64,000 nt of DNA, taken from NCBI GenBank assembly GCA_012797775.1, contig JAAZOM010000022.1, forward strand, positions 1,241-65,240. The letters run 5' to 3'. The stretch is from Candidatus Kuenenbacteria bacterium (GTDB lineage Bacteria > Patescibacteriota > Patescibacteriia > UBA2196 > GWA2-42-15). This document shows positions 2 through 44,234 of the stretch, piece after piece; position 1 is the stretch's first letter, and each line of letters opens with the position of its first letter. Both the position numbers and the translations under genes were made by a program. Below the pieces are notes generated by a model. It worked only from the letters and a program-made list of their open reading frames with translations, was not told the DNA's origin and ran no database searches.

Positions 2-622
2 CCATATATACAAGAAGCGGAGTTGGCGCGGCAAATCAAATCACGGCTTCAAACAATCTCGCTTTGCGACGAAATGACCGATTGGATGTTGGAGCGCGTA
101 AAAGAATGGGAATGCGAGGAGAATTCGTCGTCGCAAAGCGAGGTTCAAAATCTTTCCGAAAATATCAAAACGGCAGAAGCGAAAATGGAAAAGTTAGTTT
201 CCACTTATCTTGATGGCAACATTCCAAAACAGACTTATCTCAAAAAGAAAGATGAAATTTTGCTCGCTTCTGCCGTTTTGGAGCAAAAGAAGAAAGATTT
301 TGAAAGCAGGAGAAAAAATTGGGTCGAACCCCTGCGGGAGTGGATTTTAGATACGAAACAGGCCGATTTTTTGGCCAAGTCGGATAATTTCCACCAAATC
401 AAAACATTTGTTCAAAAAATCGGAACGAACCCTCGGGTTCGTAACAAATCCGCCGTCTTTGATTTTTGCCCAGCCAGCCATTTCGCCGCGAAGCGGGGAA
501 TCATTTTGCGGAGCGCGGCCGCCTCGCGGCCGCGCGGAGCAATGCTTTCAAACGCTGAAGTTTCTATTGGCGGAGAGGGAGGGATTCGAACCCTCGGACC
601 CCGTGAAGGGTCAACAACTTAG
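2..622 (+). CDS. C-terminal fragment of a large serine recombinase (integrase/resolvase family). It is 5'-truncated by the window edge, and the ORF reads antisense into the tRNA, so it may be a remnant or pseudogene.
   Basis: The reading frame is open from the first base. The peptide has the coiled-coil tail typical of large serine recombinases (..KMEKLVSTYLDGNIPKQTYLKKKDEILLASAVLEQKK..). The last ~55 nt overlap tRNA-Ser antisense. Confidence 0.35.
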   Translation, partial: PYIQEAELARQIKSRLQTISLCDEMTDWMLERVKEWECEENSSSQSEVQNLSENIKTAEAKMEKLVSTYLDGNIPKQTYLKKKDEILLASAVLEQKKKDFESRRKNWVEPLREWILDTKQADFLAKSDNFHQIKTFVQKIGTNPRVRNKSAVFDFCPASHFAAKRGIILRSAAASRPRGAMLSNAEVSIGGEGGIRTLGPREGSTT

Positions 623-657
623 CAGGTTGCTGCTTTCAGCCACTCAGCCACCTCTCC
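568..657 (-). tRNA. tRNA-Ser (anticodon GCT), 90 nt with a long variable arm and encoded CCA.
   Basis: Folded by hand: acceptor GGAGAGG/CCTCTCC, 3-bp D stem GCT/AGC, anticodon stem GCAAC/GTTGT with loop CTGCTAA, variable arm GACCC-TTCAC-GGGTC, T arm GAGGG-TTCGAAT-CCCTC, discriminator G, then CCA. Confidence 0.85.
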
Positions 658-6034: not shown

Positions 6035-6478
6035 ATGGTTATCAAAAAAACAGACAAACCAGAAATCAAAAGAGAAACGGCCGCTACTGGCAAATATTAT
6101 TATGGACTTGGTCGCCGCAAGACCGCCATTGCCAAGGTTAAACTTTTTGAGAATGGTACCGGCAAGCTAGTTGTCAACGGCAAAGAATATAAATCTTTTT
6201 ACAGATATCCTCTTTATGCTGAAAATTTAGAACTGCCTTTCGAATCGGTTGGTTTGACGGGCAAAATAGATGCTGAGATAAAAGTCGTCGGCGGAGGCAT
6301 GAAAGCTAGTTCCGAAGCCTGCCGCTTGGGTATTGCCAGAGCTCTAATCAAAATGACTGAAAATTTCAAGCCCGCTCTCCGCGCTGCTGGCTATGTCACC
6401 CGCGATCCTAGAGCCAAAGAAAGAAAGAAGCCAGGCTTAAAAAGAGCCAGAAGAGCTCCCCAGTGGGCTAAGAGATAA
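6035..6478 (+). CDS. rpsI: 30S ribosomal protein S9.
   Basis: YYGLGRRKTAIAKV...C-terminal RRAPQWAKR. Confidence 0.9.
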   Translation: MVIKKTDKPEIKRETAATGKYYYGLGRRKTAIAKVKLFENGTGKLVVNGKEYKSFYRYPLYAENLELPFESVGLTGKIDAEIKVVGGGMKASSEACRLGIARALIKMTENFKPALRAAGYVTRDPRAKERKKPGLKRARRAPQWAKR

Positions 6479-6493
6479 TGCAATATTTTCCGA

Positions 6494-6522
6494 CACCCCC
6501 GATGTACATCGGGGGTTTTTAT
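6494..6522 (+). terminator. Rho-independent terminator ending the ribosomal-protein operon.
   Basis: CCCCCGATGTACATCGGGGG followed by TTTTT. Confidence 0.7.
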
Positions 6523-6617
6523 TTGACAACGCCCCCATTTTTTTATAGGGTTACTCAATTCAAACAAAAAGTAAATAACCCTTAAAAAGTGCTATAAAAA
6601 AACAGGAGGGTGTAATC

Positions 6618-7646
6618 ATGAAAATGAAATGGATCGTGTTTCTGCTGTTGGTGCTTGCTTTTGGCAGCCCGTCACAGGAAATCGGGGTGACATATTCATA
6701 CCCACACGCCTTATGGTTATACGATGGCGACGAGACCAAGGCCAAGGCGGTGCTGGAACAAGCAGCACAAGCGGGGATAAAGGACTTACGCCTGATAATC
6801 CACTGGAACTGGTGTCAACCAGACTCCAGCGGCCAGTTCGATTTCAGCAGTCTGGAGTGGCAGCTCGAGATCATGGAAAAATACGGGGCCGAAACCGTTA
6901 TATTATGCCTCGGGCGCAAGGTTCCGAGATGGCCCGAGTACCACATTCCCGAATGGGCTAAGCAGTTGCCAGAGGAGGAATTCCGGCAAAAGCTCATCCG
7001 GTACATAGAGGGGGTAATTTCGCATTATTCCGACGACCATCGGATAACCCATTTTCAGGTCGAAAATGAGCCTTTGTCCAGTTTTGGTGAAGGGAAGGAG
7101 TTCTGGCAGAAGAGGTTTGATGATCAGCAAAATTTTCTGGCCGCTGAAATTTCCATCGTTGAAAAGTATGATCATCTTTGCCGGCCTATTATCGTCACTG
7201 ACCCAGGCGATTTTGGAAATTACAATGACGCCGCCGAAAATGCAGATATTTTGGGCGTGAGTTATTATGGGGTAGTTTACAACAGTTGGTTGGGCTATTT
7301 CCCCAACCGCTGGCTTTACAAAAAATTCTTTCGTTTTTTTATTGGGAATTTTTTATGTGGCCCATGGTTCCAGGCCGAGACGATCAGCCAGTTCATCGGA
7401 GGCAAGTCAGTCTGGATGGTTGAAGGCCAAGGCGAACCCTGGGGTCCAAAGGATAACAGGTCGCTCTCCCCAGAGGAGTCTGCCAAAAGCATGAACCCAG
7501 AGAAGCTTCGGCAGAATCTGGAAGCTGTTCGACAAGCTGGCTTCAAAGGGCCAATTTTTCTCTGGGGCATCGAATGGATGGCCTGGATGAGAGATAAAGG
7601 CCACCGAGAGATGTGGGAGACCGTGGAGGGTCTAGTCCGAAAATAA
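6618..7646 (+). CDS. Secreted glycoside hydrolase, clan GH-A (beta/alpha)8 fold, GH5-like. It is markedly GC-richer than its flanks.
   Basis: Signal peptide MKMKWIVFLLLVLAFGSPSQ. NEP acid/base motif (HFQVENEPLSS) and a putative nucleophile region (VWMVEGQGEPWG). Strong SD AGGAGGG 8 nt upstream. Terminators lie on both sides. Confidence 0.5.
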   Translation: MKMKWIVFLLLVLAFGSPSQEIGVTYSYPHALWLYDGDETKAKAVLEQAAQAGIKDLRLIIHWNWCQPDSSGQFDFSSLEWQLEIMEKYGAETVILCLGRKVPRWPEYHIPEWAKQLPEEEFRQKLIRYIEGVISHYSDDHRITHFQVENEPLSSFGEGKEFWQKRFDDQQNFLAAEISIVEKYDHLCRPIIVTDPGDFGNYNDAAENADILGVSYYGVVYNSWLGYFPNRWLYKKFFRFFIGNFLCGPWFQAETISQFIGGKSVWMVEGQGEPWGPKDNRSLSPEESAKSMNPEKLRQNLEAVRQAGFKGPIFLWGIEWMAWMRDKGHREMWETVEGLVRK

Positions 7647-7669
7647 ATTGTGGTAATATATTGTGGTGG

Positions 7670-7699
7670 ACGCTCAACACTAAGTTGAGCGTTTTTTTA
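7670..7699 (+). terminator. Rho-independent terminator.
   Basis: ACGCTCAAC-ACTAA-GTTGAGCGT followed by TTTTTTT. Confidence 0.7.
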
Positions 7700-7776
7700 T
7701 TCTTATTTTACTTACCTCGCTTGCCCAGCTTTCTACTTATCTTGCTTTATCCTCGTTTTTCCGCCATAATTAAAGC

Positions 7777-9498
7777 ATGCTTAACTGGCTCAAAAAATAC
7801 AAAACAGCCATATTTTTAGGCTTATTTTGCTTGGCCTTTTTTTGTATTTACGCTCATTTCAATCTACTGGTTATGCACCCAGACGGGGCAGGGGACAATC
7901 CAAAATTTTCTTCCCCGGACGAGACCGCCAATTATTTTTGGGCCAAAAGACTGGCCCAAGGCCAGCCGCTTTATTATTTTGAAGAGTTAAATGGTCCAGG
8001 CAACAACCTTATCCACCCGAGAAGCATCAATGTTATTGATGGCAAAAACGTACCCGGCTCTTTTCTAGGTTTGATTTTTATTTATGGTTCCCTCGCCAAA
8101 ATCCTCGGCCTCGGAGTCGTTCCCTATTTAACGCCATTTTTTTCCGCGCTCGGGATTTTCTTTTTTTATTTATTACTAAAAAAGATTTTTAATTCTACCC
8201 CTGTCGCTCTTATTCCCGCAACGCTCTTGGCTTTTACTCCAGCTTGGTTTTATTATTCCTGCCGAGGTATGTACCATAACGTACTGTTCACCAGTTTGTT
8301 GATTATGGGGGTTTATTTTTTATGGAAGGTTCTGGCGGAAGCTCCTAGCCCAAATTCCAAATCCCAAGCCCCAAATCAAAAATCAAAAATCAACAATCCA
8401 AAACTAATGTTATATTTCCTCTCCGGTCTTTTGATCAGCTTCGCTCTATTCACTCGCACTTCAGAAATTGTTTGGGCCGCCTTAACTATTTTTTTTATTT
8501 TCATTTTTCACTTTAAAAGGATCTATTGGCCCGGTTTTCTTTTATTTTTGGCCGCTGGAACGATCCCCATTATCGCCTTATTCTATCACAATCAGATTCT
8601 TTACGGTTCACTTATCTCTGCTGGTTATCGCGCCGTGAGTGATGCTGTATCTATTGGCGGCTTGGCTAGTGCTGGTGTTTTATTCCAGATTTTTGTCACC
8701 CCCTTTGGCATTCATCCCGGTTCCATTCTCACCAACGGTTTCAATTATCTTTATCAGCTTTTTCCGATTTGGGGCGCACTTTATTTTCTTGGCGCTTTCC
8801 TCTTCGCGATTCTCCCGACTCATATTATTAAAATCAATTATAAAAAAAGAATCGCTTATCTCGCTTATTGCTTACTGCTCACTGCTTATTTATTGATTTT
8901 TTATGGTTCTTGGGCGATCACTGATCGCATTGACCGGGAGACTCTCTCGCTTGGTACTTCTTATCTGCGTTATTGGCTGCCGATTTATATTGTTACCTTG
9001 CCGTTTGTCGCTACTATTATCTGGCAGCTCGCCAATTTTTTGACTCCGCTCCAAAAAAGAAAAATTTTTTATCAGTCAATTTTTTCTTTTGCCGCTTGCC
9101 TTTGCATATTTATGCCCACGATCAATGTGCTTTTGCGCCAGAGTGACGAAAGTTTGTTTCTTTTAAAAAACCTAAACGAAACTCGTGTTAAATCAGCCAT
9201 TGTTAATAAAATGGTCGGGCCAGAAGATATCGTCCTCGTCTACAAACAGGCGGATAAAATATTTTTCCCCGAACGCACTCTTTTAATTACCGAACTAGCT
9301 GTCCCTATTGATTATGAATCAGTCGCCACCTTGTCAAAAATCAGAGATGTCTATTATTATTCCTACGCCAATCCCAGAGACGTTGATTCCATCTCGCGCT
9401 TGCAATTTGCTCCATATGGATTGGAAATTGTCGAGGGGCAAAAGGTTTTTGGCAATGATAGACTTTATAAGATTAAAAAAATTAGACAAATACAGTAA
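7777..9498 (+). CDS. Polytopic membrane glycosyltransferase, GT-C fold, ArnT/PMT-like (GT39/GT83).
   Basis: More than 10 TM helices. The first extracytoplasmic loop carries the HP..DE motif (HPDGAGDNPKFSSPDETANYFWAKRL) typical of the ArnT/PMT family. Confidence 0.45.
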   Translation: MLNWLKKYKTAIFLGLFCLAFFCIYAHFNLLVMHPDGAGDNPKFSSPDETANYFWAKRLAQGQPLYYFEELNGPGNNLIHPRSINVIDGKNVPGSFLGLIFIYGSLAKILGLGVVPYLTPFFSALGIFFFYLLLKKIFNSTPVALIPATLLAFTPAWFYYSCRGMYHNVLFTSLLIMGVYFLWKVLAEAPSPNSKSQAPNQKSKINNPKLMLYFLSGLLISFALFTRTSEIVWAALTIFFIFIFHFKRIYWPGFLLFLAAGTIPIIALFYHNQILYGSLISAGYRAVSDAVSIGGLASAGVLFQIFVTPFGIHPGSILTNGFNYLYQLFPIWGALYFLGAFLFAILPTHIIKINYKKRIAYLAYCLLLTAYLLIFYGSWAITDRIDRETLSLGTSYLRYWLPIYIVTLPFVATIIWQLANFLTPLQKRKIFYQSIFSFAACLCIFMPTINVLLRQSDESLFLLKNLNETRVKSAIVNKMVGPEDIVLVYKQADKIFFPERTLLITELAVPIDYESVATLSKIRDVYYYSYANPRDVDSISRLQFAPYGLEIVEGQKVFGNDRLYKIKKIRQIQ

Positions 9499-9563
9499 CT
9501 TGTAACTCGCAAAAAGTAAAATTATCCCTTGTGCTAGTTACTAATTACGAGTTACTAGTTACC
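9494..9563. repeat. Dispersed palindromic repeat, copy A: AGTAACTTGTAACTCG, spacer, then CCTTGTGCTAGTTACTAATTACGAGTTACTAGTTACC.
   Basis: Shares about 35 of 37 nt with the copy at the window end (63956-63995). It overlaps the TAA stop of the upstream gene. Confidence 0.7.
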
Positions 9564-10193
9564 AAAAGAATTATTATGCCCATCTATAAATACATAAGAT
9601 TTATCTTAATTGCCGCCCCCATCATCTTTCTGGGCTTTTTAATATACAAAGACCTTGTCCCTAGTGGCCGCTTGATTACTAACTATGATTTTTGTGATTT
9701 AAATCCGTTCGCTTCTTCCTGGTCGCCGCATGGCCGGGTTTTGGCTATAGAAAAAATTAAAATGGGCGGCGACAAATATTGCCAACAAAAAATGGTCATT
9801 GACCCGGTTTATTTTGACATCCGCCTGCCACAAAGATTTAATGAGGCCAGGCTGACCGTCTGGTATCAAAAAAAATCTGAAACAAAATTGCAAATTGGTC
9901 CAGCCATTGATTTATCCGCCTGGCAGTGGCAATTAAAAGATATTAATTATATCCGCACCGAAAACAATTGGCAGGTCGGCGTCGCTGATTATAATATTCA
10001 ATCTTCCAAGCTAGATAATAATCGTTTGCGCTTTCTAGTTTCTTCGCCAAATATGGACACCTCTAGGCAGGAGATTATTTTTAAAAAAATAGAAATAGAA
10101 TTTATAAAAAAACCGATTACCGCTTGGCCGGATTTTATCGAAAGAGCAAAAGAATTCATCTTGTTTTCTAGATTAAAAATTATTTTTCAGTAA
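9531..10193 (+). CDS. Hypothetical protein (the real start is probably the ATG at 9576). The ORF is bracketed by repeat copies A and B.
   Basis: ORF with an N-terminal TM segment. The 5' end of the track ORF is repeat-encoded (LVTNYELLVT). Confidence 0.4.
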   Translation: MLVTNYELLVTKRIIMPIYKYIRFILIAAPIIFLGFLIYKDLVPSGRLITNYDFCDLNPFASSWSPHGRVLAIEKIKMGGDKYCQQKMVIDPVYFDIRLPQRFNEARLTVWYQKKSETKLQIGPAIDLSAWQWQLKDINYIRTENNWQVGVADYNIQSSKLDNNRLRFLVSSPNMDTSRQEIIFKKIEIEFIKKPITAWPDFIERAKEFILFSRLKIIFQ

Positions 10194-11692: not shown

Positions 11693-12592
11693 ATGAGTTG
11701 GTTATTAATCACCCTCATCGCCTATTTTTTGAACGCCATTGCCATGGTCATTGACAAGACCTTGCTCAAGCGCGATATAAAAAATCCTTTTGTTTATACT
11801 TTTTATATTGCCGCTCTGGGAGCGGTATTAATGGTTTTTATTCTGCCCTTCGGCTTGAAGTGGCCTGGCTTGAGCCAATTTATTGTCAGCCTCGCCGCCG
11901 GCGCTACTTTCGCTCTGGGTTTATTCTTGATGTTTTTTGGGCTTAAGAAAGAGGACGCTTCTCGGCTCACTCCAGTGATCGGCGGGCTGACTCCAGTTTT
12001 TGTCTTCCTGCTGGCTTATTTATTTTTGGGGGAGCGATTATTTGGTCGTCAAATTATTGCTTTTATTCTCATCATTGTTGGTACCTTTGTAGTTTCCTTA
12101 AGTTTTGGCCGGGGGCATGCCCCTCATCTGCGTCGGGCTTTTTGGCTGGCCCTACCCTCGGCTTTTCTTTTCGGACTTTCCTATGTCTTGACCAAAGATG
12201 TTTACAATCATCAGCCATTTATTTCCGGTTTTGTTTGGACCAGACTCGGTGCCTTCATTGTCGCTATTATGCCCATGTTGTGGGCCAAAAATCGCTATGA
12301 TTTGCTTCATCCACCAAAAGGAGGTGGTATGTCTGGTGCCAAGAGCCGTTTTCTTTTCGGTCAAGCTTGTGGCGGTTCATCTGCTATTTTGATCCAATAT
12401 GCCGTGTCTCTGGCCTCCGTTTCTTTGGTTCAAGCCCTGCAGGGCACTCAATATGTTTTTATCTTTCTGGCCGTTCTTTATCTGACTTATTATCGCCCCA
12501 AAATTTTAAAAGAAACATTCAATCCAGCCATTATCACTCAAAAAATAATTGCTATTATTTTGATTGGTCTAGGTTTATATTTTATAATCTAA
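11693..12592 (+). CDS. EamA/DMT-family membrane transporter.
   Basis: Ten predicted TM helices and duplicated EamA-like halves. Confidence 0.45.
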   Translation: MSWLLITLIAYFLNAIAMVIDKTLLKRDIKNPFVYTFYIAALGAVLMVFILPFGLKWPGLSQFIVSLAAGATFALGLFLMFFGLKKEDASRLTPVIGGLTPVFVFLLAYLFLGERLFGRQIIAFILIIVGTFVVSLSFGRGHAPHLRRAFWLALPSAFLFGLSYVLTKDVYNHQPFISGFVWTRLGAFIVAIMPMLWAKNRYDLLHPPKGGGMSGAKSRFLFGQACGGSSAILIQYAVSLASVSLVQALQGTQYVFIFLAVLYLTYYRPKILKETFNPAIITQKIIAIILIGLGLYFII

Positions 12593-21262: not shown

Positions 21263-21679
21263 ATGTATAATATTTTTAGTTATATCTGGGCCATTATTAA
21301 AAACATTATTGTTTTGTTTATTATATTTTTGATTTTCAACCAAGCTTACTCGTCTTTTGAAACTATTGTTTTTTGTTTTTTAATATTAATTTACATTAGT
21401 ATAAGCCAATTTTTTTCAAGCAACGCTTATGCGCAGATGACCCAAACTCTTTTGTTAACGGAAAGAATTATAAACCTAAAAAAATTATTCAATAAATCTG
21501 AAAATGAAAATTCTTTAAATCCTGATTATATAGAAAACAACGAGGTTGATTTTGAAAAAGAAGAAATAAAAGAGGCTAAGGACAGAATGAAACCCCATGT
21601 TGTCAAATTTTATATCAACTCGGTTTTTAATTTTGTAATTTTTGTGGTTTGCATTTTTTATCTATTTGGAGAATTATAA
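21263..21679 (+). CDS. Hypothetical small membrane protein, extremely AT-rich.
   Basis: ORF with two hydrophobic segments; roughly 22% GC. Confidence 0.3.
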   Translation: MYNIFSYIWAIIKNIIVLFIIFLIFNQAYSSFETIVFCFLILIYISISQFFSSNAYAQMTQTLLLTERIINLKKLFNKSENENSLNPDYIENNEVDFEKEEIKEAKDRMKPHVVKFYINSVFNFVIFVVCIFYLFGEL

Positions 21680-33160: not shown

Positions 33161-34195
33161 TTATATGTTCTTTAATATCTTTTTCAGCCAATAGTATGGT
33201 CCGGGCAGATAGTGGCGCAGAAAGGATTTGATCTTTTTCTTTAGACCACTATTGATGTCATAGATATACCAAAAAGTATAATTATCCGCTTGGCGATTAT
33301 TGTATTCTATTCTTGCTGGATGCTGGAGTTGAAATTCCATCGGGTAGCGCGCCATATTGGCATTTTTATCTAGCACATTGACTGTCGAGCCAGCTCCTTC
33401 GCCAAAGCCGATATTGGTGATCAAATTTTTTTTCGGAGCGATTACCAGCCCTTCGTGCATCAAGACATTATAAAACCATTGCACATCCCAGGTGCCGTCA
33501 CGCGCTTTTTTATTATCTTTTATATTATCAAAAAGATTGCTCCAATATTCTCTGACCGCATAATTGGGCAATATCTTTTTGAGTTTATCAGTCTTTCTTA
33601 TCCCCTCCCAGCTTTCCAGAAAAAATTCATAAGTGTTAAAGGCTCTTTGCCAAGTGGCCCAACCCCAGGTTTGTGCCACCTGAGAAAAATAATAGCTATC
33701 AGGACAATTAAATTTTTTATTACCTTGTTGGGTGTTCAGCCCGGCAATTTGCATTATTTTTGGGTTATCCTTGTATTTTTCTAGAAGTTCTTCGCAATAA
33801 TAAAAAAAACTTTCATCCGGCAGACAGTCGTCCTCGAGAATTATCGCCCGATCCACTTGCCCAAAAACCCACTCCAGCCCCGAGGCGATCCTCGGTCCGC
33901 AATTCATATTCACCTCAGAAAAATTCTTTTTTACCTCGCACTCCCAATCTACTTGGTCCACTACCGCCCTAGCCGCGTCGCACTTTATTTTTTCTTCGGC
34001 ATTTCTCGCTCCGTCAGCGATCACAAAAAGCTGTCTTGGCTTGACTTGTCTGATGGCATTGAGTGTTTTCTCGGTTGTATCGACGCGCCGATAAACTGTT
34101 AAAAGTATGGGGACATTAAATTGATTTTTCATATTATTATTAAGTTTATCCTGACCCCGCATTGAGTTCTGCGGGGGAAGGATCCCGTGGTTCAT
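33161..34195 (-). CDS. Putative GT-A fold glycosyltransferase (the start is likely a later ATG near 34132).
   Basis: VPILLTVYRR...LFVIADG..ILEDD (DXD-like). Confidence 0.3.
   Translation of the reverse strand: MNHGILPPQNSMRGQDKLNNNMKNQFNVPILLTVYRRVDTTEKTLNAIRQVKPRQLFVIADGARNAEEKIKCDAARAVVDQVDWECEVKKNFSEVNMNCGPRIASGLEWVFGQVDRAIILEDDCLPDESFFYYCEELLEKYKDNPKIMQIAGLNTQQGNKKFNCPDSYYFSQVAQTWGWATWQRAFNTYEFFLESWEGIRKTDKLKKILPNYAVREYWSNLFDNIKDNKKARDGTWDVQWFYNVLMHEGLVIAPKKNLITNIGFGEGAGSTVNVLDKNANMARYPMEFQLQHPARIEYNNRQADNYTFWYIYDINSGLKKKIKSFLRHYLPGPYYWLKKILKNI
34146..34181 (+). repeat. Dispersed intergenic element, copy 3 (core only): TTATCCTGAC-CCCGCATTGAGTTCTGCGGGG-GAAGGATCCC. Its TTA is the TAA stop of the minus-strand GT2 gene.
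   Basis: Same core as copies 1 and 2. Confidence 0.55.
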
Positions 34196-35138
34196 TTTTT
34201 AATGCCGCGTAAATTTTGGGCATTTTATTTTTCAAATAACCTTTCACCATTAAGTTCCTTTTTCGGCGGTAAAGCTCTTTGGCCTCTGCCGATTGTTTTG
34301 TGTTCAGTTGCTCTTTTTGTAGGAATTTCCTATATATCAGCCCATCAATTTTCAAAGCGCTTATCAAGTTTTTTATTTTTTTTGTTTTTTGGTTGCGCGC
34401 CTCATCGCGTTGCACCAATTCATCCCAGCCTATTTTGGCATAACTTTCATTTATTAATTCAAAAATAGATTTTAAATAACAAAGATGTTGCGCCTCGCTA
34501 TTGTTTCGCCCCAGAGAATTACCGTGGATACGGTGGCTCACCAAAAATTCTGGCACATTTGTTATTTGTTCCTCTTTTAAAAGTTTAACATATAAATTTA
34601 AATCTTGGGCGTACTTATATTCCTCATTATAATTGCCTATCTTGGCGATTTTGTCTTTACGGAAAAATATAGAGCTGTGCCAGATGCACGGTTTGCCAAA
34701 GATAAAATGAAACTTTATCAATTTTGTTTCTACTGGCGGCTGCCTCTTGGCCAGCATTTGGCCATTTTCGTCAATAATTTTTACCCAACTGCCCGTGAGC
34801 GCATATTTGGGGTTGCCTTCCATAAATTCATATTGTCTAGCCAGTCTTTCTGGCGCGGATAGGTCATCGGCATCGAGCCTGACAATATATTCACCTTGTG
34901 CCTCCCTGATTCCGACATTGAGAGACTTGGTTAGCCCCAAATTATATGTATTGTGAATTAATCTGATTCTCTTATCTTGTTTAGCGTAATTTTCGATTAT
35001 TTCCTTAGTTTTATCAGTCGAGGCATCATTAATTATAATAAATTCAAAATCAGTGAAAGTCTGGTTCAAAATACTCTCAATTGCTTCTGGTAAATATTTT
35101 TCCGCGTTATAAGCGGACAGCAAGACCGATACTTTCAT
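34146..35138 (-). CDS. Glycosyltransferase family 2.
   Basis: VSVLLSAYNAEKYL, NDASTD and RLDADD. Confidence 0.7.
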   Translation of the reverse strand: MKVSVLLSAYNAEKYLPEAIESILNQTFTDFEFIIINDASTDKTKEIIENYAKQDKRIRLIHNTYNLGLTKSLNVGIREAQGEYIVRLDADDLSAPERLARQYEFMEGNPKYALTGSWVKIIDENGQMLAKRQPPVETKLIKFHFIFGKPCIWHSSIFFRKDKIAKIGNYNEEYKYAQDLNLYVKLLKEEQITNVPEFLVSHRIHGNSLGRNNSEAQHLCYLKSIFELINESYAKIGWDELVQRDEARNQKTKKIKNLISALKIDGLIYRKFLQKEQLNTKQSAEAKELYRRKRNLMVKGYLKNKMPKIYAALKNEPRDPSPAELNAGSG

Positions 35139-35150
35139 AAAATTTTTATT

Positions 35151-36461
35151 TTAGGCCATGGCCTGTAGTTCCTCGTCTTCAGTATACAAAATCTCTAACC
35201 CCTCAATTACCGGCGTGTCTTTATATTGTTTATTAAAGCCATCAAAAAATGCTTTTATCATTTCCAGTTTAATCCGGTAATTTTCTTTATTGTCGGTCGC
35301 CTTTAGGTGCGCCCGCTGACTGCTTTTACAATAAGCACACAGAGGATTCATCTGGCCGTCTCGTGCATTGACTGTCTGCCGCAGATATTGCAAAACCGGA
35401 TGTTGCCAGATTTTATCAAATTCAACTTGGCCATATTTTTCAATATGTTTTTGGTAATTGAAGATAAAAGGATTAAAAACATTACAGCAACCCAGATAAT
35501 ATGAGTCCTGATGTGAATAACAAGAGCGTAGTTGTAATCCGACCCAAGGCGCATTGCAGGCGGTTGCCTTTCTGTCTTTATCTTCTCCTGGCTTCCTGTC
35601 TTTTTCTTTTTGGAAATATGGCGGCTCTTTGGGCAAAGCGGCAATCACTCCCTGCTCTTTGGCATAATTATAAAGGCGATCTATTTTTTTATTAATCTCA
35701 TCCACTTCGTCGTCTCGGACGATTATCTCCTTGAGGGCATGATTATAATCATGATAATGGTAAAGGCCAAAGAAATCTATTTTAAATTTTTTTATTAGAT
35801 CAATCATTTTGACCGCTTCATCTATATTGGCCTTATTCAAAGCATAAACCACGGTAATACGGGGTTTTTTATAATTACCATCCATTTTCTTTTTGGCGAG
35901 AGACACCAGATTGCCGATGACTGTTTCAAAGTCACCAGCCTGCAAGATTTTATAAGTTTCCGGCGTCGCCGCATGGATAGAAAAAGTTATGGCGTCAAAA
36001 CCGATTTTTAGCATGGTATCCTGTATTTTTTCATTTAGCCCCATGCCGTTAGTAGACATGCCCAAATCCAGCTTGTGTTTCAATTTTAAATAACCAATTA
36101 TTTCCTTGAAATGAGGGTTTAATACGGACTCACCAATAAAACCCATAAAATTTATACTGCCAGCCTTATCAAAGATTTTATCAAACGCCTTTATTTGTTC
36201 CGGCGTTATATTATTAGCCACCCTTTCAATATTTTTTTCTCTCAGGTTGTGAACCGAGCAGATCGGGCAGAGTAAATTACAGCAATTGCTCAAGCTCATG
36301 GTAATTTTCGTCGGCTGGCCCTTGGGATTTTTTTTGTTTTTTCCCGCCTCTGCCAAGGCCAACATCTTGTTCAATTTTTTCTTTTTACTTGGTAGCACCA
36401 AAGAAGCCATCGCGTTTATCGGCTGTGTCGAGACGATCTTCTTGATATTCTTTTTAATCAT
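35151..36461 (-). CDS. Radical SAM protein with a C-terminal Cys-rich SPASM-like domain.
   Basis: CNLLCPICS (CX3CX2C), a TIM-barrel core, and C-terminal CNAPW..SC..GCCN..CAYC. Confidence 0.55.
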   Translation of the reverse strand: MIKKNIKKIVSTQPINAMASLVLPSKKKKLNKMLALAEAGKNKKNPKGQPTKITMSLSNCCNLLCPICSVHNLREKNIERVANNITPEQIKAFDKIFDKAGSINFMGFIGESVLNPHFKEIIGYLKLKHKLDLGMSTNGMGLNEKIQDTMLKIGFDAITFSIHAATPETYKILQAGDFETVIGNLVSLAKKKMDGNYKKPRITVVYALNKANIDEAVKMIDLIKKFKIDFFGLYHYHDYNHALKEIIVRDDEVDEINKKIDRLYNYAKEQGVIAALPKEPPYFQKEKDRKPGEDKDRKATACNAPWVGLQLRSCYSHQDSYYLGCCNVFNPFIFNYQKHIEKYGQVEFDKIWQHPVLQYLRQTVNARDGQMNPLCAYCKSSQRAHLKATDNKENYRIKLEMIKAFFDGFNKQYKDTPVIEGLEILYTEDEELQAMA

Positions 36462-37201
36462 AATCCGTTTGCTTTAATTTTTTTAATCAGCCATTTCCGG
36501 CTCCGCAATTTTAGATCGCGGTCATGCAAACGCACAAAGTCTTCGTCCTGAATAAATTCAATGCCCACCATTTGCTTATTACTATCAAGCATATAGCGGT
36601 TCGCTATTACCTTTTTGATATTTGTTTCCTTGAGCGCCTCATAGGTTTTTATACTCCAGACATTGCCCGAGGGTACAAAGATTTCTATGCTTCTCCCAAA
36701 ATAATTTTCTAATATTTTTTGTGATTCTAAAATATGTTCGCGATGCAAAGAGCTTGGCAAGTCTGGCCAGAACTCGCGGTGCATTTTTCTATTGGAATAT
36801 CGGGAATAGGGGAGATGATTACCCACAACGCAATGCGTCAATCCGTGGTTAGCAATGGTTATGAGTTCCTTATCGGCGGCCTGTTTCAACATTGCTGCTT
36901 CGGCCGGGAATTTCTCAGGAAAAGGTGTTAAATTTGAATTTTCATCTACCCAAGTTGCCGCTATAGAGACAATCGGCACAATGCCATTATCCTCAAAAAT
37001 TTTTAAATATTTTCTCCAATCTTCTGCTGTTAGCTCTTCATATTTTGCCCAGCCGCGGAAGGGCCAGACTCTTTTTAAAAATCCATAATTAGCCCAAGGA
37101 AAATAAAAATAAGTTATCCCGCGCCAGGTAAAACTTTTTTTGCCCCATTGGTTATAATATTTGGTCGATGCGCCGATGTCATCAATGCGCCATTGTTTCA
37201 T
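36458..37201 (-). CDS. Putative polysaccharide deacetylase-like protein (DUF2334/CE4-like).
   Basis: RIDDIGAS and IANHGLTHC motifs. Confidence 0.35.
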   Translation of the reverse strand: MKQWRIDDIGASTKYYNQWGKKSFTWRGITYFYFPWANYGFLKRVWPFRGWAKYEELTAEDWRKYLKIFEDNGIVPIVSIAATWVDENSNLTPFPEKFPAEAAMLKQAADKELITIANHGLTHCVVGNHLPYSRYSNRKMHREFWPDLPSSLHREHILESQKILENYFGRSIEIFVPSGNVWSIKTYEALKETNIKKVIANRYMLDSNKQMVGIEFIQDEDFVRLHDRDLKLRSRKWLIKKIKANGL

Positions 37202-38901
37202 TTGGTCAAAATTATAAATAATCCGCTATAATACTGGTCTTGTTTTTTATCCAGCTTCAACATTCTTATCAGTAAAAGCCAAGGTAGAAAAAAAAGATAA
37301 TAACCTATCTTGCGTTTTAATACAGAACCGCCCTGGGCCGATTTCCTTTTTGTCATATCCCAGATAGCCGTATGACTGTTGCCAAAGGTTGTTATTTCTA
37401 CCTTATCAAAACCGCTTTCTTTAAAAACCTTTTCTGCAAATTTTTTTGTCGGCCTTAGGTTGTCATCGTGCTCATTGCTAAAAAAGGGGATACTCAAAAG
37501 TGCTGCACCGCCAGGTTTTATTAAACGATACATTTCTCTTGTTGCTTTAGGGAAATCATTTAAGTATTCCACCACCTCCAAGCACAAAATAGAATCAAAA
37601 TAATTATCAGGGTAATTCAACCCCTTCTCAATATCTCCATATAAAACATTTGCTTCCTTGTTCTCTTCTAGGTCAATAGCTACCATTTCTTCGGCCTTTA
37701 TTATTTGGTCATAGCGCCTGTTTTTTGAGCCGATATCCAATACTCGCCCTTGGAGCAGCCAGATATTTTTTAAAAGCAATTTTTCTAGAGCATTACGATG
37801 CCAGGTAAATTTATAATAGCGGTAAATCATCTTCTTCGCCGCTTTTATTTTTTGGATAAAATTTTTCATTATCAATATTTTATTAAAAACAAACAAAGTT
37901 ATTTTTGTTCTATAGAGTAAAATTTTATTAATTTTTTTACGCTTACCGTCGGTTAGTCGTTCTATTTTATTAATATATTTATAGGCTATCGTTTGAATGG
38001 TTTCATATTTTATGTCCCCGACATAAGCTTGGTATTCCCGACTGATCAATTCTATTTTTTCTATCAGTTCTTTTTCATTGGTAAACAACTCGCCACCTTT
38101 TTGTACTATTTCTCCATTACCGCCACTATTTAGTGCTGCTACTGGCAAGCCGCAAGCCAGTGCCTCTATTATCGCGTTGGAGCAAGCGTCGTCTTTAGTC
38201 GCTGTAATATAAATATCACGTTCTTTAAGTTTATCAGCCAATTTTTCGCTTGTCAGCGGAGGGATAATTTTTATATTTTTAAAATGAACGGGACAATTTC
38301 CCACAAAAGACATTTCATAGCGCGACCAGTCCAGATTTTTGTCCAAGTATTCATAAAACTCAAAGCCTTTTTTTATGTTGCCCGACCAACTGCTGGCGAT
38401 CAATTTTGTTTTTTGCGAATTATGATTTGGCCTATTATCAGTATTAAAAATTTTTGGGTCAACCGCATTGCCGATAATACTATATCTCTTACTATTAAAT
38501 CCCAGTTTTTTTGATTCTTCGTACAGCCAGCCTGAAACAAAAATAGCCCAATCAGGTAATTTACTCGCCACCCCATTCATCAGGCGATCTAAAATAGCCC
38601 ACTCCTTCCCTTTATGATAGCCAAGGATCCCCCCCAGACGGTGAATAAATATTTTATTCGGATATTTTAACTTCAGCTCTACTACCTCCGGCAGTTTTTG
38701 ATAGCTATAAAATATAATACATTCAGCCTTTTCTGTTTCTTCCTCATATATCCCCAAATTAATAAATTCATCCCTCAAGACTTTTAGGAATTGATTGGCG
38801 CCGCCCCAGGGGCCGTCTTTAAAATCGTATAATATTTTAATCTTTAAATTGCTGTTCATAATATTTTTTGTAAAAACCTTTTTTATCCAAAAGCTCCTCA
38901 T
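37198..38901 (-). CDS. Bifunctional GT-B glycosyltransferase (N-terminal) fused to a class I SAM methyltransferase (C-terminal).
   Basis: N-terminal IIEALACGLPVAALNSGGNGEIV; C-terminal VLDIGSKNRRYD..LCLEVVEYL..LIKPGG. Confidence 0.55.
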   Translation of the reverse strand: MRSFWIKKVFTKNIMNSNLKIKILYDFKDGPWGGANQFLKVLRDEFINLGIYEEETEKAECIIFYSYQKLPEVVELKLKYPNKIFIHRLGGILGYHKGKEWAILDRLMNGVASKLPDWAIFVSGWLYEESKKLGFNSKRYSIIGNAVDPKIFNTDNRPNHNSQKTKLIASSWSGNIKKGFEFYEYLDKNLDWSRYEMSFVGNCPVHFKNIKIIPPLTSEKLADKLKERDIYITATKDDACSNAIIEALACGLPVAALNSGGNGEIVQKGGELFTNEKELIEKIELISREYQAYVGDIKYETIQTIAYKYINKIERLTDGKRKKINKILLYRTKITLFVFNKILIMKNFIQKIKAAKKMIYRYYKFTWHRNALEKLLLKNIWLLQGRVLDIGSKNRRYDQIIKAEEMVAIDLEENKEANVLYGDIEKGLNYPDNYFDSILCLEVVEYLNDFPKATREMYRLIKPGGAALLSIPFFSNEHDDNLRPTKKFAEKVFKESGFDKVEITTFGNSHTAIWDMTKRKSAQGGSVLKRKIGYYLFFLPWLLLIRMLKLDKKQDQYYSGLFIILTK

Positions 38902-40657
38902 GGGTTCCTTGTTCTAATATTTTACCATCTACTACCACGACGATATTGTCAGCGCTTTTGATGGTTGATAGGCGGTGAGCGATTGCCACCACCGTCTTTC
39001 CAGCCAAAACTTTCTCCAGCGAAGCTTGTATGGCCTTTTCTGTTTCTGTATCCAAAGAGCTGGTCGCTTCATCCAAAATCAAAAGTTCCGGATCTCTGAT
39101 AATTGCCCGAGCAATAGCAATTCTTTGTTTTTGGCCGCCAGAAAGACGTGCTCCTTTTTCTCCAACTATTGTTTCGTATTTTTGGGGCAGGGTCTCTATA
39201 AAATCATCTATTTGGGCTACCTTTGCGGCGCGCATAATATCCTCTTTGTTGGCTCCCCAGCAACCATAGGCGATATTGTTGGCAATAGTGTCATTAAATA
39301 TCACGATGTCTTGAGAAATATAACCCAGATGTTCTCTCCAAGTTTTAGTATTCACTTCTTTCATGTCAGTTTTGTCAACAAAAATTTGACCGCCCGTCGG
39401 CATTATTAGCCCGGATATTATATTCGCCAGAGTGGTTTTTCCTGACCCTGTCGGGCCGACTAGGGCAGTGATTTTGCCCTTGGGTATCACCAGATTGATT
39501 GATTCTAAAACATTATTCTCTTCCTCATATCTCAAATTAATATCTTTCAAGACAATCTCTTTTTCTAGTTTTGTGATTTTTTGATTTCCATTCCAAGCTT
39601 TTTCTTTTTGTGCCTCTCTGATTATGGCCTCATAGGCCTTATAGGGTTCCATCAACTGGAACATCCTTGCTACTGCCCGCAAGCTGGCGTTGGCCTCGTT
39701 AAACATTTTTAGAAAGATATAGAAATAAGTTATCAAAACCGGCACATAAAAAGTTATATTTAAACCCCATATTTTTGTTACAAAAGTAAAAATACTGACT
39801 AGAGCGGTCATAACGGCAACCTCTGATAGGGGAGCAATTATTGCCTCATAGCTTTCATACTTATAGTCAAGATCGGCCATTGAATTGGATATTTGGTAAA
39901 AATTTTTTCTTTCATATTCTTCAGCTGTAAAAATTTTGACAGATTTTATATTACCCAACTTTTCTATCAATTGGCTATGAAGAATCGCTGACTCTTTGGT
40001 GGCCTGCATGCTAACCTTCTTGACCTTGGCGAATAAATTTTTTATCGGGATGGTTATGACTGCTTCCAAAATTATTGCCATCAGGGTAAATTTCCAAGAA
40101 ACAAAAACAAGTAAAATCAAATAAATTATTATTTTACTCACCTTTGAGATCATTTCTAAGAGTGTAAAATAAAAGCTAACTATTGATTTTGTAAAAATAG
40201 ATATACTTGTCACCAAATTGCCAGCCTTCATCTTATTTGCGAATTGTAAATTAGCCTCCGATGATGCTTCAAACATTTCATATTGCAAATCACGCCTAAT
40301 ACAAGAACTTACCCGGCTGATGGTTATTGTTTTTAGATAAGTAAAAAAACTTTTTAGCACGATCATCCCCAAAGCAAAAAACATTAATTTTAATACAATA
40401 TCTGTTTTATCTCCGGTAAAGAAATGCCCCCAAAATTTTTCTAGAAATGGTATTGTTGCTTGTGCGCTGGAAGACGGATCGATTATACTCTGAAAAAAAG
40501 GAATCATTGTACCCAAGCTAAAACCCTCGAAAATTGATGCCAGTACACTAAAAACAATAGACAAGGCAGTCAATTTTTTGTATTTTTTGAGTTTGCCGTA
40601 GGCCTTTTTAAAATATTCCTGCCTTTCTGGTGTAAAATATTTCATATTTAATCCCAA
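38837..40657 (-). CDS. ABC half-transporter exporter with fused TMD and NBD, MsbA/PglK-like (the start is likely the ATG at 40645).
   Basis: Six N-terminal TM helices, Walker A GPTGSGKTT, signature LSGGQKQRIAIARA and Walker B ILDEATS. Confidence 0.75.
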   Translation of the reverse strand: MGLNMKYFTPERQEYFKKAYGKLKKYKKLTALSIVFSVLASIFEGFSLGTMIPFFQSIIDPSSSAQATIPFLEKFWGHFFTGDKTDIVLKLMFFALGMIVLKSFFTYLKTITISRVSSCIRRDLQYEMFEASSEANLQFANKMKAGNLVTSISIFTKSIVSFYFTLLEMISKVSKIIIYLILLVFVSWKFTLMAIILEAVITIPIKNLFAKVKKVSMQATKESAILHSQLIEKLGNIKSVKIFTAEEYERKNFYQISNSMADLDYKYESYEAIIAPLSEVAVMTALVSIFTFVTKIWGLNITFYVPVLITYFYIFLKMFNEANASLRAVARMFQLMEPYKAYEAIIREAQKEKAWNGNQKITKLEKEIVLKDINLRYEEENNVLESINLVIPKGKITALVGPTGSGKTTLANIISGLIMPTGGQIFVDKTDMKEVNTKTWREHLGYISQDIVIFNDTIANNIAYGCWGANKEDIMRAAKVAQIDDFIETLPQKYETIVGEKGARLSGGQKQRIAIARAIIRDPELLILDEATSSLDTETEKAIQASLEKVLAGKTVVAIAHRLSTIKSADNIVVVVDGKILEQGTHEELLDKKGFYKKYYEQQFKD

Positions 40658-42348: not shown

Positions 42349-42351
42349 ATT

Positions 42352-43086
42352 TTACTCATGTTCAATTACGCCCCACCATTCACCCCAGTTGATTTGGTAA
42401 TTTTTTATTTTCCAGCCGCTTTCTTTTAGTTCCTTTTCAATTTCCTCAACAGTATATTCTGTTTCATGTGTCGGGTCTAGCCGGTATTCAAAACCCATCA
42501 ATTTTTTATAAACAGTCAGCCAGTCGCGGCTGATCATGGGTACACGCAAAAGTAATATTGGGGCAATTTTTTTCATATTTTTTAGTAGCTCGCGGCGCTC
42601 CCGGATATGTTCTAATACATTTGATAATACTACCTTGTCAAATTTCTCTTGGGGCTCATACTCATTCAGATCAGCCACCAAAAATTTCAAATTATCTTTT
42701 TTATATTTATTCCTAGCCTCTTCTATGCTTTTAGAATTAAAATCCACCCCCAGTACATATTTTGCTTTTTGGGCGATTTTCATAGCCACCAAACCCGTGC
42801 CCGACCCAGCATCTAGCACCCTATCATTCGGCTCAATGTTGTCCAGAAAAAACTGGTGGTATTTAATTATGCCATGCTTGGGGTGGATTCCCTTATTCAA
42901 GCTGACGGCCAGCTCTGATATTTTCTCATAGGCCCTGTTATGCTGGTCTATGTATTTGCCCAAGAGTTTTATTTTTTTCTTTTCCGTCAAAGATCTGGCC
43001 TTGATTGCTGACAGAGCCACAGTTAAAGTTTTTTTGAGCCCTCGTTGTTTTAAATTATTTTTAATTTTTACTAATAAGTTTTTCAT
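42352..43086 (-). CDS. Class I SAM-dependent methyltransferase.
   Basis: VLDAGSGTGL..GVDFN..LSNVLEH. Confidence 0.6.
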   Translation of the reverse strand: MKNLLVKIKNNLKQRGLKKTLTVALSAIKARSLTEKKKIKLLGKYIDQHNRAYEKISELAVSLNKGIHPKHGIIKYHQFFLDNIEPNDRVLDAGSGTGLVAMKIAQKAKYVLGVDFNSKSIEEARNKYKKDNLKFLVADLNEYEPQEKFDKVVLSNVLEHIRERRELLKNMKKIAPILLLRVPMISRDWLTVYKKLMGFEYRLDPTHETEYTVEEIEKELKESGWKIKNYQINWGEWWGVIEHE

Positions 43087-44209: not shown

Positions 44210-44234
44210 AATTCTTTATTCTTAATTCATCGTC

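What the first reader, a model, noticed from the sequence alone, without database searches (positions are those of the whole stretch)
6494..7699. GC-rich, terminator-insulated gene for a secreted clan GH-A glycoside hydrolase inserted right after the ribosomal-protein operon.
The 6618-7646 ORF is visibly GC-richer (roughly 50%) than everything around it. This is enough to create a spurious 110-aa alternative-frame ORF inside it (6629-6961). It has its own strong SD (AGGAGGG), a signal peptide, a GH5-like NEP catalytic motif, and clean rho-independent terminators on both sides (6494-6522 and 7670-7699). The compositional contrast and self-contained transcription unit suggest horizontal acquisition of a secreted polysaccharide-degrading enzyme. 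That would be relevant if the organism is an episymbiont or scavenger.
Basis: partly seen in the sequence, partly recalled or inferred. Interest (0 to 1): 0.55.

Follow-up and report, generated by a model that had tools for sequence, protein, structure and literature searches.

The report
Horizontally exchanged secreted glycosidase gene cassette
A gene for a secreted sugar-chain-cutting enzyme sits as a compositionally foreign, self-contained unit just after a ribosomal-protein operon in a tiny "Candidatus Kuenenbacteria" bacterium, and comparison with relatives shows it is an accessory gene that is swapped, replaced and lost at this one site, which is real but fairly ordinary gene exchange.

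Summary
ORF 6618-7646 (342 aa) has the highest GC (0.496) and GC3 (0.586) of 62 long ORFs in the window. It also has by far the most atypical codon usage (z -6.6). A strong SD, a signal peptide and terminator hairpins on both sides are present.

Horizontal history is supported, but the exchange is within Patescibacteria.
- Family-wide, the gene's GC3 equals its host's GC3.
- The site between rpsI and a GT39 glycosyltransferase is empty or holds other cargo in five related lineages, and holds a decayed remnant in one.
- A near-identical strain (flanks 99.6-100%) carries an allele only 75% identical (dS ~1.2).
- A 72%-identical copy sits at another locus in a 35% GC genome.
- No mobile-element signature was found, so exchange is probably by flank-mediated homologous recombination.

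The substrate is unknown. Fusions to EamA permease, GH1, nuclease and peptidase domains favour glycan scavenging.

The parts
6035..6478 (+). rpsI (ribosomal protein S9). It is the last gene of the S13-S11-S4-rpoA-L17-L13-S9 operon and the conserved left flank of the variable site.
   Evidence: ORF. Pfam Ribosomal_S9 on the syntenic gene of L001. Relatives at 62-83% identity, all followed by the GT39 gene. The 3' part carries short synonymous-only divergent tracts against L001.
6495..6524 (+). Intrinsic terminator of the ribosomal-protein operon (9-bp GC-rich stem, 4-nt loop, T-run).
   Evidence: dG -16.1, z -3.4. An equivalent hairpin is conserved in L001, L169 and L175.
6523..6551 (+). Candidate promoter of the cassette: TTGACA (6523-6528), 17-nt spacer, TAGGGT (6546-6551). 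Inferred only.
   Evidence: Read from the sequence. The TTGACA and a TAGGAT/TAAGAT -10 are conserved at the same place in L175 and L169. The consensus scan did not call it because the -10 is weak.
6604..6610 (+). Shine-Dalgarno AGGAGGG, 7 nt upstream of the ATG.
6618..7646 (+). Gene for a secreted clan GH-A glycoside hydrolase (342 aa). It is the compositional outlier of the window.
6618..6665 (+). Signal peptide (MKMKWIVFLLLVLAFG, likely cleavage AFG/SP). Inferred by eye.
   Evidence: Sequence. Close alleles have canonical A-x-A sites, e.g. P0003 ..NALAQA/QE. AF2 models residues 2-14 as a lone helix ahead of the barrel.
7062..7073 (+). E149-N150-E151-P152. N-E is the clan GH-A acid/base motif just after strand beta4 (residues 145-148).
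   Evidence: E149, N150 and E151 are invariant in 110 homologues. Strand position.
7422..7424 (+). Codon of E269, the predicted catalytic nucleophile at the end of strand beta7 (residues 264-271).
   Evidence: Invariant in 110 homologues, together with E273 and W275. Strand position.
6629..6961 (+). 110-aa alternative-frame ORF inside the GH gene; no evidence that it codes.
   Evidence: Listed. It lies wholly within the GH reading frame on the same strand. Not tested for homologues or coding signal.
7668..7701 (+). Intrinsic terminator of the cassette (11-bp stem, 5-nt loop, T-run).
   Evidence: dG -15.3, z -4.4. A near-identical hairpin is kept in L175 although the GH gene is absent there, and a terminator is also kept behind the L009 remnant.
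7742..7776 (+). Conserved block ahead of the GT39 gene: TTGCTT, 17-nt spacer, CATAAT, ending 6 nt before the ATG. Right boundary of the variable site. Candidate promoter of a leaderless mRNA (inferred).
   Evidence: TTTTCCGCCATAATTA is invariant in six Kuenenbacteria loci. No SD is present.
7777..9498 (+). GT-C / GT39-type (PMT_2, STT3-like) membrane glycosyltransferase. Conserved right flank, mosaic against the sister strain.
   Evidence: Homologue annotations. Conserved synteny rpsI-[X]-GT39. Tracts with pS 0.3-0.8 and low pN lie between 100%-identical stretches.
6260..9860 (.). Region of mosaic divergence from the otherwise 99.6-100% identical strain L001/L002. It is centred on the GH gene (74.8% nt identity).
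11693..12592 (+). EamA/DMT permease gene, 4 kb downstream on the same strand. It is homologous to the N-terminal domain of EamA-GH fusion proteins of this GH family (suggestive functional link).
   Evidence: Pfam EamA. 31-36% identity over its full length, E down to 7.6e-47, to the EamA domain in at least 20 of the 150 best family representatives. Its 120 closest homologues are unfused.

Best explanation
ORF 6618-7646 is a functional, monocistronic accessory gene. It lies between the terminator of the ribosomal-protein operon and its own terminator. It has its own leader and SD and probably its own promoter.

It encodes a Sec-exported retaining glycosidase of clan GH-A, with N150-E151 as acid/base on beta4 and E269 as nucleophile on beta7. 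The enzyme belongs to a large, uncharacterised, Patescibacteria-wide family that fits no single established GH family.

In this Kuenenbacteria lineage the gene occupies a variable slot between two conserved genes, rpsI and a GT39 glycosyltransferase. The conserved flanks act as homology arms. Divergent alleles are brought in by homologous recombination from other Patescibacteria, which explains the foreign GC3 and codon usage. In other lineages the gene is lost by deletion or replaced by other cargo.

Status of each step:
- Shown: fold, catalytic residues, compositional anomaly, patchy presence, and allele replacement between near-identical strains.
- Inferred: promoter, signal-peptide cleavage, and recombination as the exchange mechanism.
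- Inferred with lower confidence (~0.45): outside the cell the enzyme cuts beta-linked glycans from the environment or a host envelope, and the products are taken up by a DMT/EamA permease.
For: Composition:
- Highest GC and GC3 of 62 ORFs, and codon-usage z -6.6.
- This is not a family trait. In 41 metagenomic loci the homologue's GC3 equals that of its neighbours (mean difference +0.008, median z 0.11) over genomes of 30-57% GC.

Patchy presence at the rpsI-GT39 site:
- Intact in the window and in L001/L002.
- L009 has a remnant: signal-peptide ORF joined out of frame to the last 44 aa, hmmsearch E 2.5e-19, terminator kept.
- L010 is empty (133-bp spacer).
- L169-172 and L173/174 show no GH trace.
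- L175 has no GH but keeps the same leader and the same terminator hairpin.
- L176, the same species as L175, carries a 304-aa reverse-strand gene instead.

Allele replacement:
- Against L001 the flanks are 99.6-100% identical but the GH is 74.8% identical in nt and 73% in aa, with dS 1.19, dN 0.185 and dN/dS ~0.16.
- The neighbouring genes carry short tracts of pS 0.3-0.8.
- The L001 haplotype was assembled identically from a second sample.

Transfer between distant genomes:
- The L003 copy is 72% identical in aa, while the GT39, 220-aa and 68-aa homologues on the same contig are only 33, 33 and 51% identical.
- It sits behind rpmA in a 35.5% GC genome, with GC3 0.532 against 0.296 sd 0.03 for its neighbours.

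Enzyme:
- Catalytic residues invariant in 110 sequences.
- The profile hits GH5, PslG, GH35 and GH42 in PDB.

Function:
- Fusions to EamA (at least 20 of the top 150 representatives), GH1, SNase, C39-like peptidase, YkuD and DUF192.
- An EamA gene lies 4 kb downstream.
- In L173 an EamA gene is directly followed by a cytoplasmic GH1.
Against: - No donor was identified. No family member closer than 72% was found in a higher-GC genome.
- The L009 remnant and the conserved leader and terminator in L175 imply the cassette has been at this site since before these species split. It is then unclear why GC3 has not ameliorated, unless alleles are re-imported repeatedly.
- All sequences are metagenome assemblies. 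The fine mosaic pattern could be partly chimeric assembly of co-occurring populations, although one haplotype is reproducible.
- No integrase, tRNA, flanking direct repeat or terminal inverted repeat marks the cassette.
- The EamA link is weak. The fused EamA domains are only 31-36% identical to the window's EamA, and its 120 nearest homologues are unfused.
- The window's EamA lies within a run of glycan-biosynthesis genes, which suits the rival reading.
- Promoter, export and activity are untested.
Confidence: 0.7

Rival explanations
1. The enzyme is a resident envelope-glycan processing hydrolase, analogous to PslG, BcsZ or PgaB. It belongs functionally to the adjacent surface-glycan biosynthesis cluster: GT39, GNAT, RmlC-like, EamA, methyltransferase, GT4, RmlD, GT4. 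The locus is variable because surface-glycan loci are under diversifying selection, as O-antigen and capsule loci are. Nutrition is not involved.
For: The downstream genes are glycan-biosynthesis genes. The profile hits PslG (GH39) at E 8e-07 and Foldseek at E 6e-09. The divergent mosaic extends into the GT39 gene. In such a cluster EamA could be a polyprenyl-phosphate-sugar flippase, like ArnE/F working with ArnT (own knowledge).
Against: The GH is dispensable while the GT39 cluster is kept: five related lineages lack it and one has a remnant. Elsewhere the family is not linked to GT39; no GT39, 220-aa or S9 homologue was found in 80 family loci. In L003 the GH is 6 kb away from the GT39-like gene, behind rpmA. 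Fusions to SNase and GH1 point to scavenging. The divergent tracts in GT39 are mostly synonymous, which fits imported DNA rather than diversifying selection.
Confidence: 0.2
2. The enzyme is a cell-wall hydrolase acting on peptidoglycan or a wall polymer. It would serve either as an autolysin or as a weapon against the host cell of an epibiotic CPR bacterium.
For: Some family members carry a C-terminal C39-like cysteine peptidase or a YkuD L,D-transpeptidase domain, and in L006 a C39-like gene is adjacent. Glycosidase-peptidase fusions are typical of wall hydrolases (own knowledge). The protein is exported.
Against: No similarity was found to known muramidase or glucosaminidase families. All fold matches are clan GH-A enzymes acting on beta-glucans, galactans, mannans or xylans. 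C39 adjacency was seen in only 2 of 32 loci with adequate flanks. The window protein has no such extra domain.
Confidence: 0.08
3. The GC excess is not a sign of transfer. It would be a native property of the gene (selection on mRNA or on amino-acid content), or an assembly or binning artefact.
For: The gene has evidently been at this site for a long time (L009 remnant; leader and terminator conserved in L175). GC1 is also somewhat raised, at 0.531.
Against: Family-wide there is no GC3 excess. The excess lies mainly at third positions, with GC2 near the mean. The same subclade is an even stronger outlier in a 35% GC genome at another locus. The gene is contiguous with 100%-identical flanks in independent assemblies. 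dS of 1.2 between strains whose flanks have dS near 0 cannot arise in place.
Confidence: 0.02

Closest known systems
GH42 / GH35 beta-galactosidases (e.g. Thermus A4 beta-galactosidase 1kwk, Bifidobacterium 4ucf)
   Different: Sequence identity is only 15-18%. Only model positions 9-140 of 376 are matched. The protein is a bare 342-aa barrel without the GH42 trimerisation and C-terminal domains. It is secreted rather than cytoplasmic. GH5, GH10, GH1 and GH164 score almost as well.
GH5 endoglucanases and mannanases (4nf7 Cel5C, 7vt5 MtGlu5, GH5_18 7lr8/9y4v)
   Same: They give the best sequence hits in PDB (E 1e-3 with the single sequence, 2.5e-11 with the profile). They share the NEP motif. 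Family-conserved R58, N150, E151, Y217, E269 and W316 lie where GH5's conserved Arg, Asn-Glu, Tyr, Glu and Trp would be expected (the GH5 residue list is from own knowledge).
   Different: This protein gets no hit to Pfam PF00150 at E <= 10. Only the N-terminal half aligns. The two conserved GH5 histidines were not recognised.
PslG (GH39) of Pseudomonas aeruginosa, the exopolysaccharide-processing hydrolase encoded in the psl biosynthetic operon
   Same: It is a clan GH-A barrel with an N-terminal membrane or signal segment, encoded beside glycan-biosynthesis genes. Profile hit E 8e-07.
   Different: Identity is 14-15%. The protein has no C-terminal beta-sandwich domain. The gene here is dispensable while the neighbouring cluster is retained.
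Variable cassettes between conserved flanking genes that are exchanged by homologous recombination (e.g. O-antigen and capsule loci between galF and gnd in enterobacteria; own knowledge)
   Same: Both show atypical GC, conserved flanks, very divergent alleles in otherwise near-identical strains, and no integrase or att sites.
   Different: Here the cassette is a single gene, in a Patescibacteria genome, directly behind a ribosomal-protein operon. The promoter/leader and terminator frame is retained even where the cargo differs.

Membership tests
Clan GH-A glycoside hydrolases | (beta/alpha)8 TIM-barrel catalytic domain | tested here: met
Clan GH-A glycoside hydrolases | Acid/base Glu preceded by Asn at the C-terminal end of strand beta4 | tested here: met
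   N150-E151 follow strand 145-148. E149, N150 and E151 are invariant in 110 homologues.
Clan GH-A glycoside hydrolases | Nucleophile Glu at the C-terminal end of strand beta7 | tested here: met
   E269 lies in strand 264-271 and is invariant in 110 homologues.
Clan GH-A glycoside hydrolases | Retaining hydrolysis of a beta-glycosidic bond | not testable with these tools
   Requires an enzyme assay.
GH5 (Pfam PF00150 Cellulase) | Score above the family's gathering threshold | tested here: not met
   This protein gets no PF00150 hit at E <= 10. 70 of 110 family members match at E <= 0.001, best 1.9e-10.
GH5 | The conserved residues Arg, His, Asn, Glu, His, Tyr, Glu, Trp (list from own knowledge) | tested here: inconclusive
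   R58, N150, E151, Y217 (at least 90%), E269 and W316 are conserved. The two His were not identified. No structural superposition of side chains was done.
GH42 (Pfam PF02449 plus GH42M and GH42C domains) | Full-length match to the catalytic model, together with the trimerisation and C-terminal domains | tested here: not met
   PF02449 is passed (27.9 bits against 21) but only over model positions 9-140 of 376. The protein ends with the barrel at 342 aa.
CAZy family assignment (dbCAN) | Significant match to a CAZy family or subfamily HMM | not testable with these tools
   No CAZy/dbCAN library was available.
Horizontally acquired accessory gene | Composition and codon usage atypical for the host genome but not for the gene family | tested here: met
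   window; L001, L003; family-wide control.
Horizontally acquired accessory gene | Patchy presence at a conserved syntenic site among relatives | tested here: met
   Intact in the window and L001/L002. Remnant in L009. Absent in L010, L169-172, L173/174, L175 and L176.
Horizontally acquired accessory gene | Gene similarity incongruent with the similarity of the surrounding genome | tested here: met
   75% nt identity inside 99.6-100% identical flanks. 72% aa identity against 33% for co-resident genes in L003. No formal tree reconciliation was done.
Mobile genetic element / genomic island | Integrase or transposase, tRNA target, flanking direct repeats or terminal inverted repeats | tested here: not met
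   The only tRNA is at 568-657. No meaningful flanking repeats. The neighbours are rpsI and GT39.

The most novel reading that the evidence does not exclude
The rpsI-GT39 intergenic site of Kuenenbacteria may be a conserved 'expression socket'. Its promoter/leader and terminator are retained even where the cargo differs. Different secreted or surface cargo genes would be exchanged into it between species by flank-mediated homologous recombination. The glycosidase would then be a member of an undescribed, Patescibacteria-specific clan GH-A family that works as one module with a DMT/EamA permease (and GH1) to harvest glycans. That would be a dedicated nutrient-acquisition system of ultra-small episymbiotic bacteria.
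Probability: 0.25. Interest if true: 0.6.

Novelty: new member of a known kind. Interest (0 to 1): 0.4.

Why it matters
Patescibacteria (CPR) have tiny genomes and depend on other cells or on scavenged compounds, yet little is known about how they acquire nutrients or how their genomes exchange genes.

This locus gives a clean, checkable example of strain-level allele replacement and gene loss in an uncultivated CPR lineage. No mobile-element machinery is involved.

It also points to a large uncharacterised clan GH-A family: at least 586 clusters at 50% identity score E <= 1e-30. Recurrent fusions of this family to a DMT permease, GH1, a nuclease and a peptidase suggest a surface hydrolase and uptake toolkit.

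If the enzyme's substrate were determined, it would show what these organisms feed on or attack. As a phenomenon, however, horizontal exchange of a secreted glycosidase is ordinary.

Tried and rejected
- Diversity-generating retroelement as the cause of the divergence. Rejected: substitutions are spread over all four bases (differences at G 76, C 66, T 61, A 56), 148 are transitions and 111 transversions, they span the whole gene, and dN/dS is ~0.16.
- Assembly chimera for the divergent allele. Made unlikely, not excluded: L002, from a second sample, is 100% identical to L001 over 7643 bp.
- Mobile-element insertion. No adjacent tRNA, integrase or flanking repeats.
- GC-richness as a property of the gene family. 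Rejected by the 41-locus control.
- General linkage of the family to a C39-like peptidase gene. Only 2 of 32 loci with adequate flanks show it, so it is confined to one branch and to fusion proteins.
- Linkage of the family to rpsI or GT39 outside Kuenenbacteria. None in 80 loci.
- Residual GH coding sequence in the spacers of L169, L173, L175, L176 and L010. None by hmmsearch --max.
- Metagenome scan with the single protein. It found no close relative; the alignment-based scan worked.
- Fold search against afdb50. The library was not available.
- NCBIfam. No meaningful hit.
- Literature. Only a general survey of GH families in CPR genomes was found (PMC5581439); nothing on this family or locus.
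Full report

Yes.
- ORF 6618-7646 (+, 342 aa) starts at an ATG 7 nt after AGGAGGG (6604-6610).
- Upstream, 17 nt after the rpsI stop, there is a hairpin at 6495-6516 followed by a T-run (dG -16.1 kcal/mol, z -3.4).
- Downstream there is a hairpin at 7668-7694 plus T-run (dG -15.3, z -4.4). None of 200 shuffles folds as well in either case.
- The 110-aa alternative-frame ORF at 6629-6961 exists, nested in the GH frame. It was not examined further.
- The gene's GC is 0.496 and its GC3 is 0.586. Both are the highest of 62 long ORFs (means 0.404 sd 0.040 and 0.414 sd 0.052). GC2 (0.370) is close to the mean and GC1 (0.531) is somewhat raised, so the excess lies mainly at synonymous positions.
- A likelihood test of synonymous codon choice ranks it first of 63 ORFs, at z -6.6. 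The next is -3.7.
- The adjacent ribosomal-protein genes have GC3 0.37-0.47.

**2. Whose genome is it, and what is the protein?**

An identical protein is deposited from a Candidatus Kuenenbacteria MAG (GYA54_02885). Every named homologue is from Patescibacteria: Parcubacteria, Moranbacteria and similar groups.

An AlphaFold model built on 110 homologues is confident (pLDDT 91.8, pTM 0.90) and is a (beta/alpha)8 barrel.
- E149-N150-E151 directly after beta4 and E269 at the end of beta7 are invariant across 110 sequences. This is the clan GH-A acid/base and nucleophile arrangement.
- By sequence the protein passes only Pfam GH42, at 27.9 bits, and only over the first third of the model.
- Among 110 family members, 96 touch GH42, 70 GH5, 46 GH10 and 28 GH2_C. 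All matches are weak.
- The family profile's best PDB hits are GH5 MtGlu5 (2.5e-11), PslG (8e-07), and GH35/GH42.

So 'clan GH-A' is established, but 'GH5-like' is not. No CAZy library was available.

An exhaustive profile search finds 586 clusters (at 50% identity) with E <= 1e-30 and 1181 with E <= 1e-10. The family is large and uncharacterised.

The N-terminus (MKMK, an 11-residue hydrophobic core, then AFG/SP) looks like a cleavable signal peptide. The close allele P0003 has a canonical A-Q-A site. This is inferred by eye.

**3. Is it foreign?**

Four independent lines of evidence say it is an exchanged accessory gene.

(a) Control for the gene family. In 41 metagenomic loci with adequate flanks, from genomes of 30-57% GC, the homologue's GC3 matches its neighbours (mean difference +0.008, median z 0.11). 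The excess is therefore not intrinsic to the family.

(b) Relatives. I fetched Kuenenbacteria loci through S9 and through the downstream membrane protein. The order rpsI-[X]-GT39-220 aa is conserved, but X varies:
- Intact GH in the window and in L001/L002.
- In L009 a remnant. It keeps the SD and a signal-peptide ORF (MKLMKLVLFVCLLLNCYSFARESMAEP*), joined out of frame to the last 44 residues (hmmsearch E 2.5e-19), with a terminator behind it.
- In L010 only a 133-bp spacer.
- In L169-172 a 90-aa ORF.
- In L173/174 a 358-bp spacer.
- In L175 a 47-aa ORF, framed by the same leader (TTGACA...TAGGAT...CTCAATCCAAACAAAAA...AGGAG) and the same terminator hairpin as the window cassette.
- In L176, the same species as L175, a 304-aa reverse-strand nucleotidyltransferase-like gene.

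(c) Near-identical strains.
- L001 matches the window at 99.6-100% across the ribosomal operon and from about 9900 onward. The GH gene, however, is only 74.8% identical in nt and 73% in aa.
- For the GH gene dS is 1.19, dN is 0.185 and dN/dS is ~0.16. Both alleles are therefore old and under purifying selection.
- The 3' end of rpsI, the GT39 gene and the 220-aa gene contain short tracts with pS 0.3-0.8 and low pN, lying between 100%-identical stretches. This is the signature of imported DNA from a lineage about as divergent as the GH alleles are from each other.
- A second assembly (L002) reproduces the L001 haplotype exactly.
- The three closest alleles (window, L001, L003) are themselves mosaic relative to one another.

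(d) Another genome.
- P0003 (72% aa identity) lies behind rpmA in a 35.5% GC genome.
- That genome's GT39-like, 220-aa-like and 68-aa-like proteins are only 33, 33 and 51% identical to the window's.
- Its GH GC3 is 0.532, against 0.296 sd 0.03 for the neighbours.

No tRNA, integrase or flanking repeat marks the cassette. The likely mechanism is therefore homologous recombination through the conserved flanks.

One point remains unexplained. The L009 remnant and the conserved frame in L175 imply long residence at this site. The persisting GC3 excess then needs repeated re-import, or a high-GC donor that I did not find.

**4. What does it do?**

This is inferred. The family has no fixed genomic neighbourhood, but it has informative fusions.
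- At least 20 of the 150 best representatives carry an N-terminal EamA/DMT 10-TM permease.
- Others carry GH1, staphylococcal nuclease, a C39-like peptidase, a YkuD L,D-transpeptidase or DUF192.
- The window encodes an EamA permease 4 kb downstream (11693-12592). It aligns over its full length, at 31-36% identity and E down to 7.6e-47, with the fused EamA domains. Its 120 nearest homologues are unfused, however.
- In relative L173 the EamA gene is directly followed by a GH1 without a signal peptide.

The simplest reading is an exported glycanase whose products are imported by the permease and, where a GH1 is present, finished inside the cell. I put it at about 0.45.

There are two rivals.
- An envelope-glycan processing enzyme tied to the adjacent GT39/GNAT/RmlC/GT4/RmlD cluster. 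The PslG resemblance supports this. The gene's dispensability, and its lack of linkage to GT39 elsewhere, argue against it.
- A wall hydrolase. The C39 and YkuD fusions support this. All fold matches argue against it.

**5. Comparison with what is known, and novelty**

Glycoside hydrolases are known to be widespread in CPR genomes (PMC5581439). Clan GH-A enzymes and recombining variable cassettes between conserved flanks are both well-known kinds.

This gene is a new member of those kinds. It may found a new GH family, which I could not test. The locus gives an unusually clear strain-level example of allele replacement and decay in an uncultivated lineage.

**6. Verdict**

The finding is solid but moderately interesting (0.4).

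Noticed in passing
window 7742-7777: The GT39 gene has no SD. A conserved TTGCTT, 17-nt spacer and CATAAT end 6 nt before its ATG. The block TTTTCCGCCATAATTA is invariant in six Kuenenbacteria loci. This is a candidate leaderless mRNA.
   Followed up: partly
L176 395-590; L173 4546-4720: Right after the rpsI stop there is an insertion of about 110 bp. It is followed by a duplicated copy of the last ~22 nt of rpsI plus the terminator. It may be a small inserted element with target duplication.
   Followed up: no
L176 611-1525 (-) versus L175 4224-4904: Two contigs of one species (flanks 97.7-99.8% identical) differ at the same rpsI-GT39 site. One has a 304-aa reverse-strand gene with a weak nucleotidyltransferase match. 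The other has a 681-bp spacer with a 47-aa ORF.
   Followed up: partly
L001 11922-12407, between the window's 12592 and 12597: The sister strain carries an extra DUF2726 gene (GC 27.8%) that the window lacks. This is a second strain-specific indel within 6 kb of the GH.
   Followed up: no
window 21263-21679 (+): A 138-aa ORF with GC 24.7% and GC3 26.6%, the lowest in the window, with no Pfam match. It is a low-GC outlier of unknown nature.
   Followed up: partly
window 33161-45686 (-): A block of minus-strand genes has collectively atypical synonymous codon usage (z -2.5 to -3.6) relative to the rest of the window.
   Followed up: no
window 568-657 (-) and ORF 23-622 (+): tRNA-Ser(gct) overlaps the end of ORF 23-622. 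That ORF has no Pfam hit and the second most atypical codon usage. It is probably not a real gene.
   Followed up: partly
L003 7719-9071: The 72%-identical GH copy in the unrelated low-GC genome also lies directly behind a ribosomal-protein gene (rpmA, L27), within a few dozen nt. This may be coincidence or a preference for such positions.
   Followed up: no
L173 8236-10398: In a relative that lacks the GH at the rpsI site, the EamA gene is followed 4 nt later by a GH1 beta-glycosidase without a signal peptide. No GH1 is present in the 64-kb window.
   Followed up: partly
window 6529-6548 / 6592-6611: A 20-nt inverted repeat (80% complementary) could pair the C-rich stretch after the rpsI terminator with the SD of the GH gene in read-through transcripts. 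The SD-side arm falls in the stretch that diverges in L001.
   Followed up: partly
L001 5883-6911 (allele B), codon 152: The sister strain's allele has NES instead of NEP (P152S), although P152 is at least 90% conserved in the family. The catalytic Glu residues are intact.
   Followed up: no
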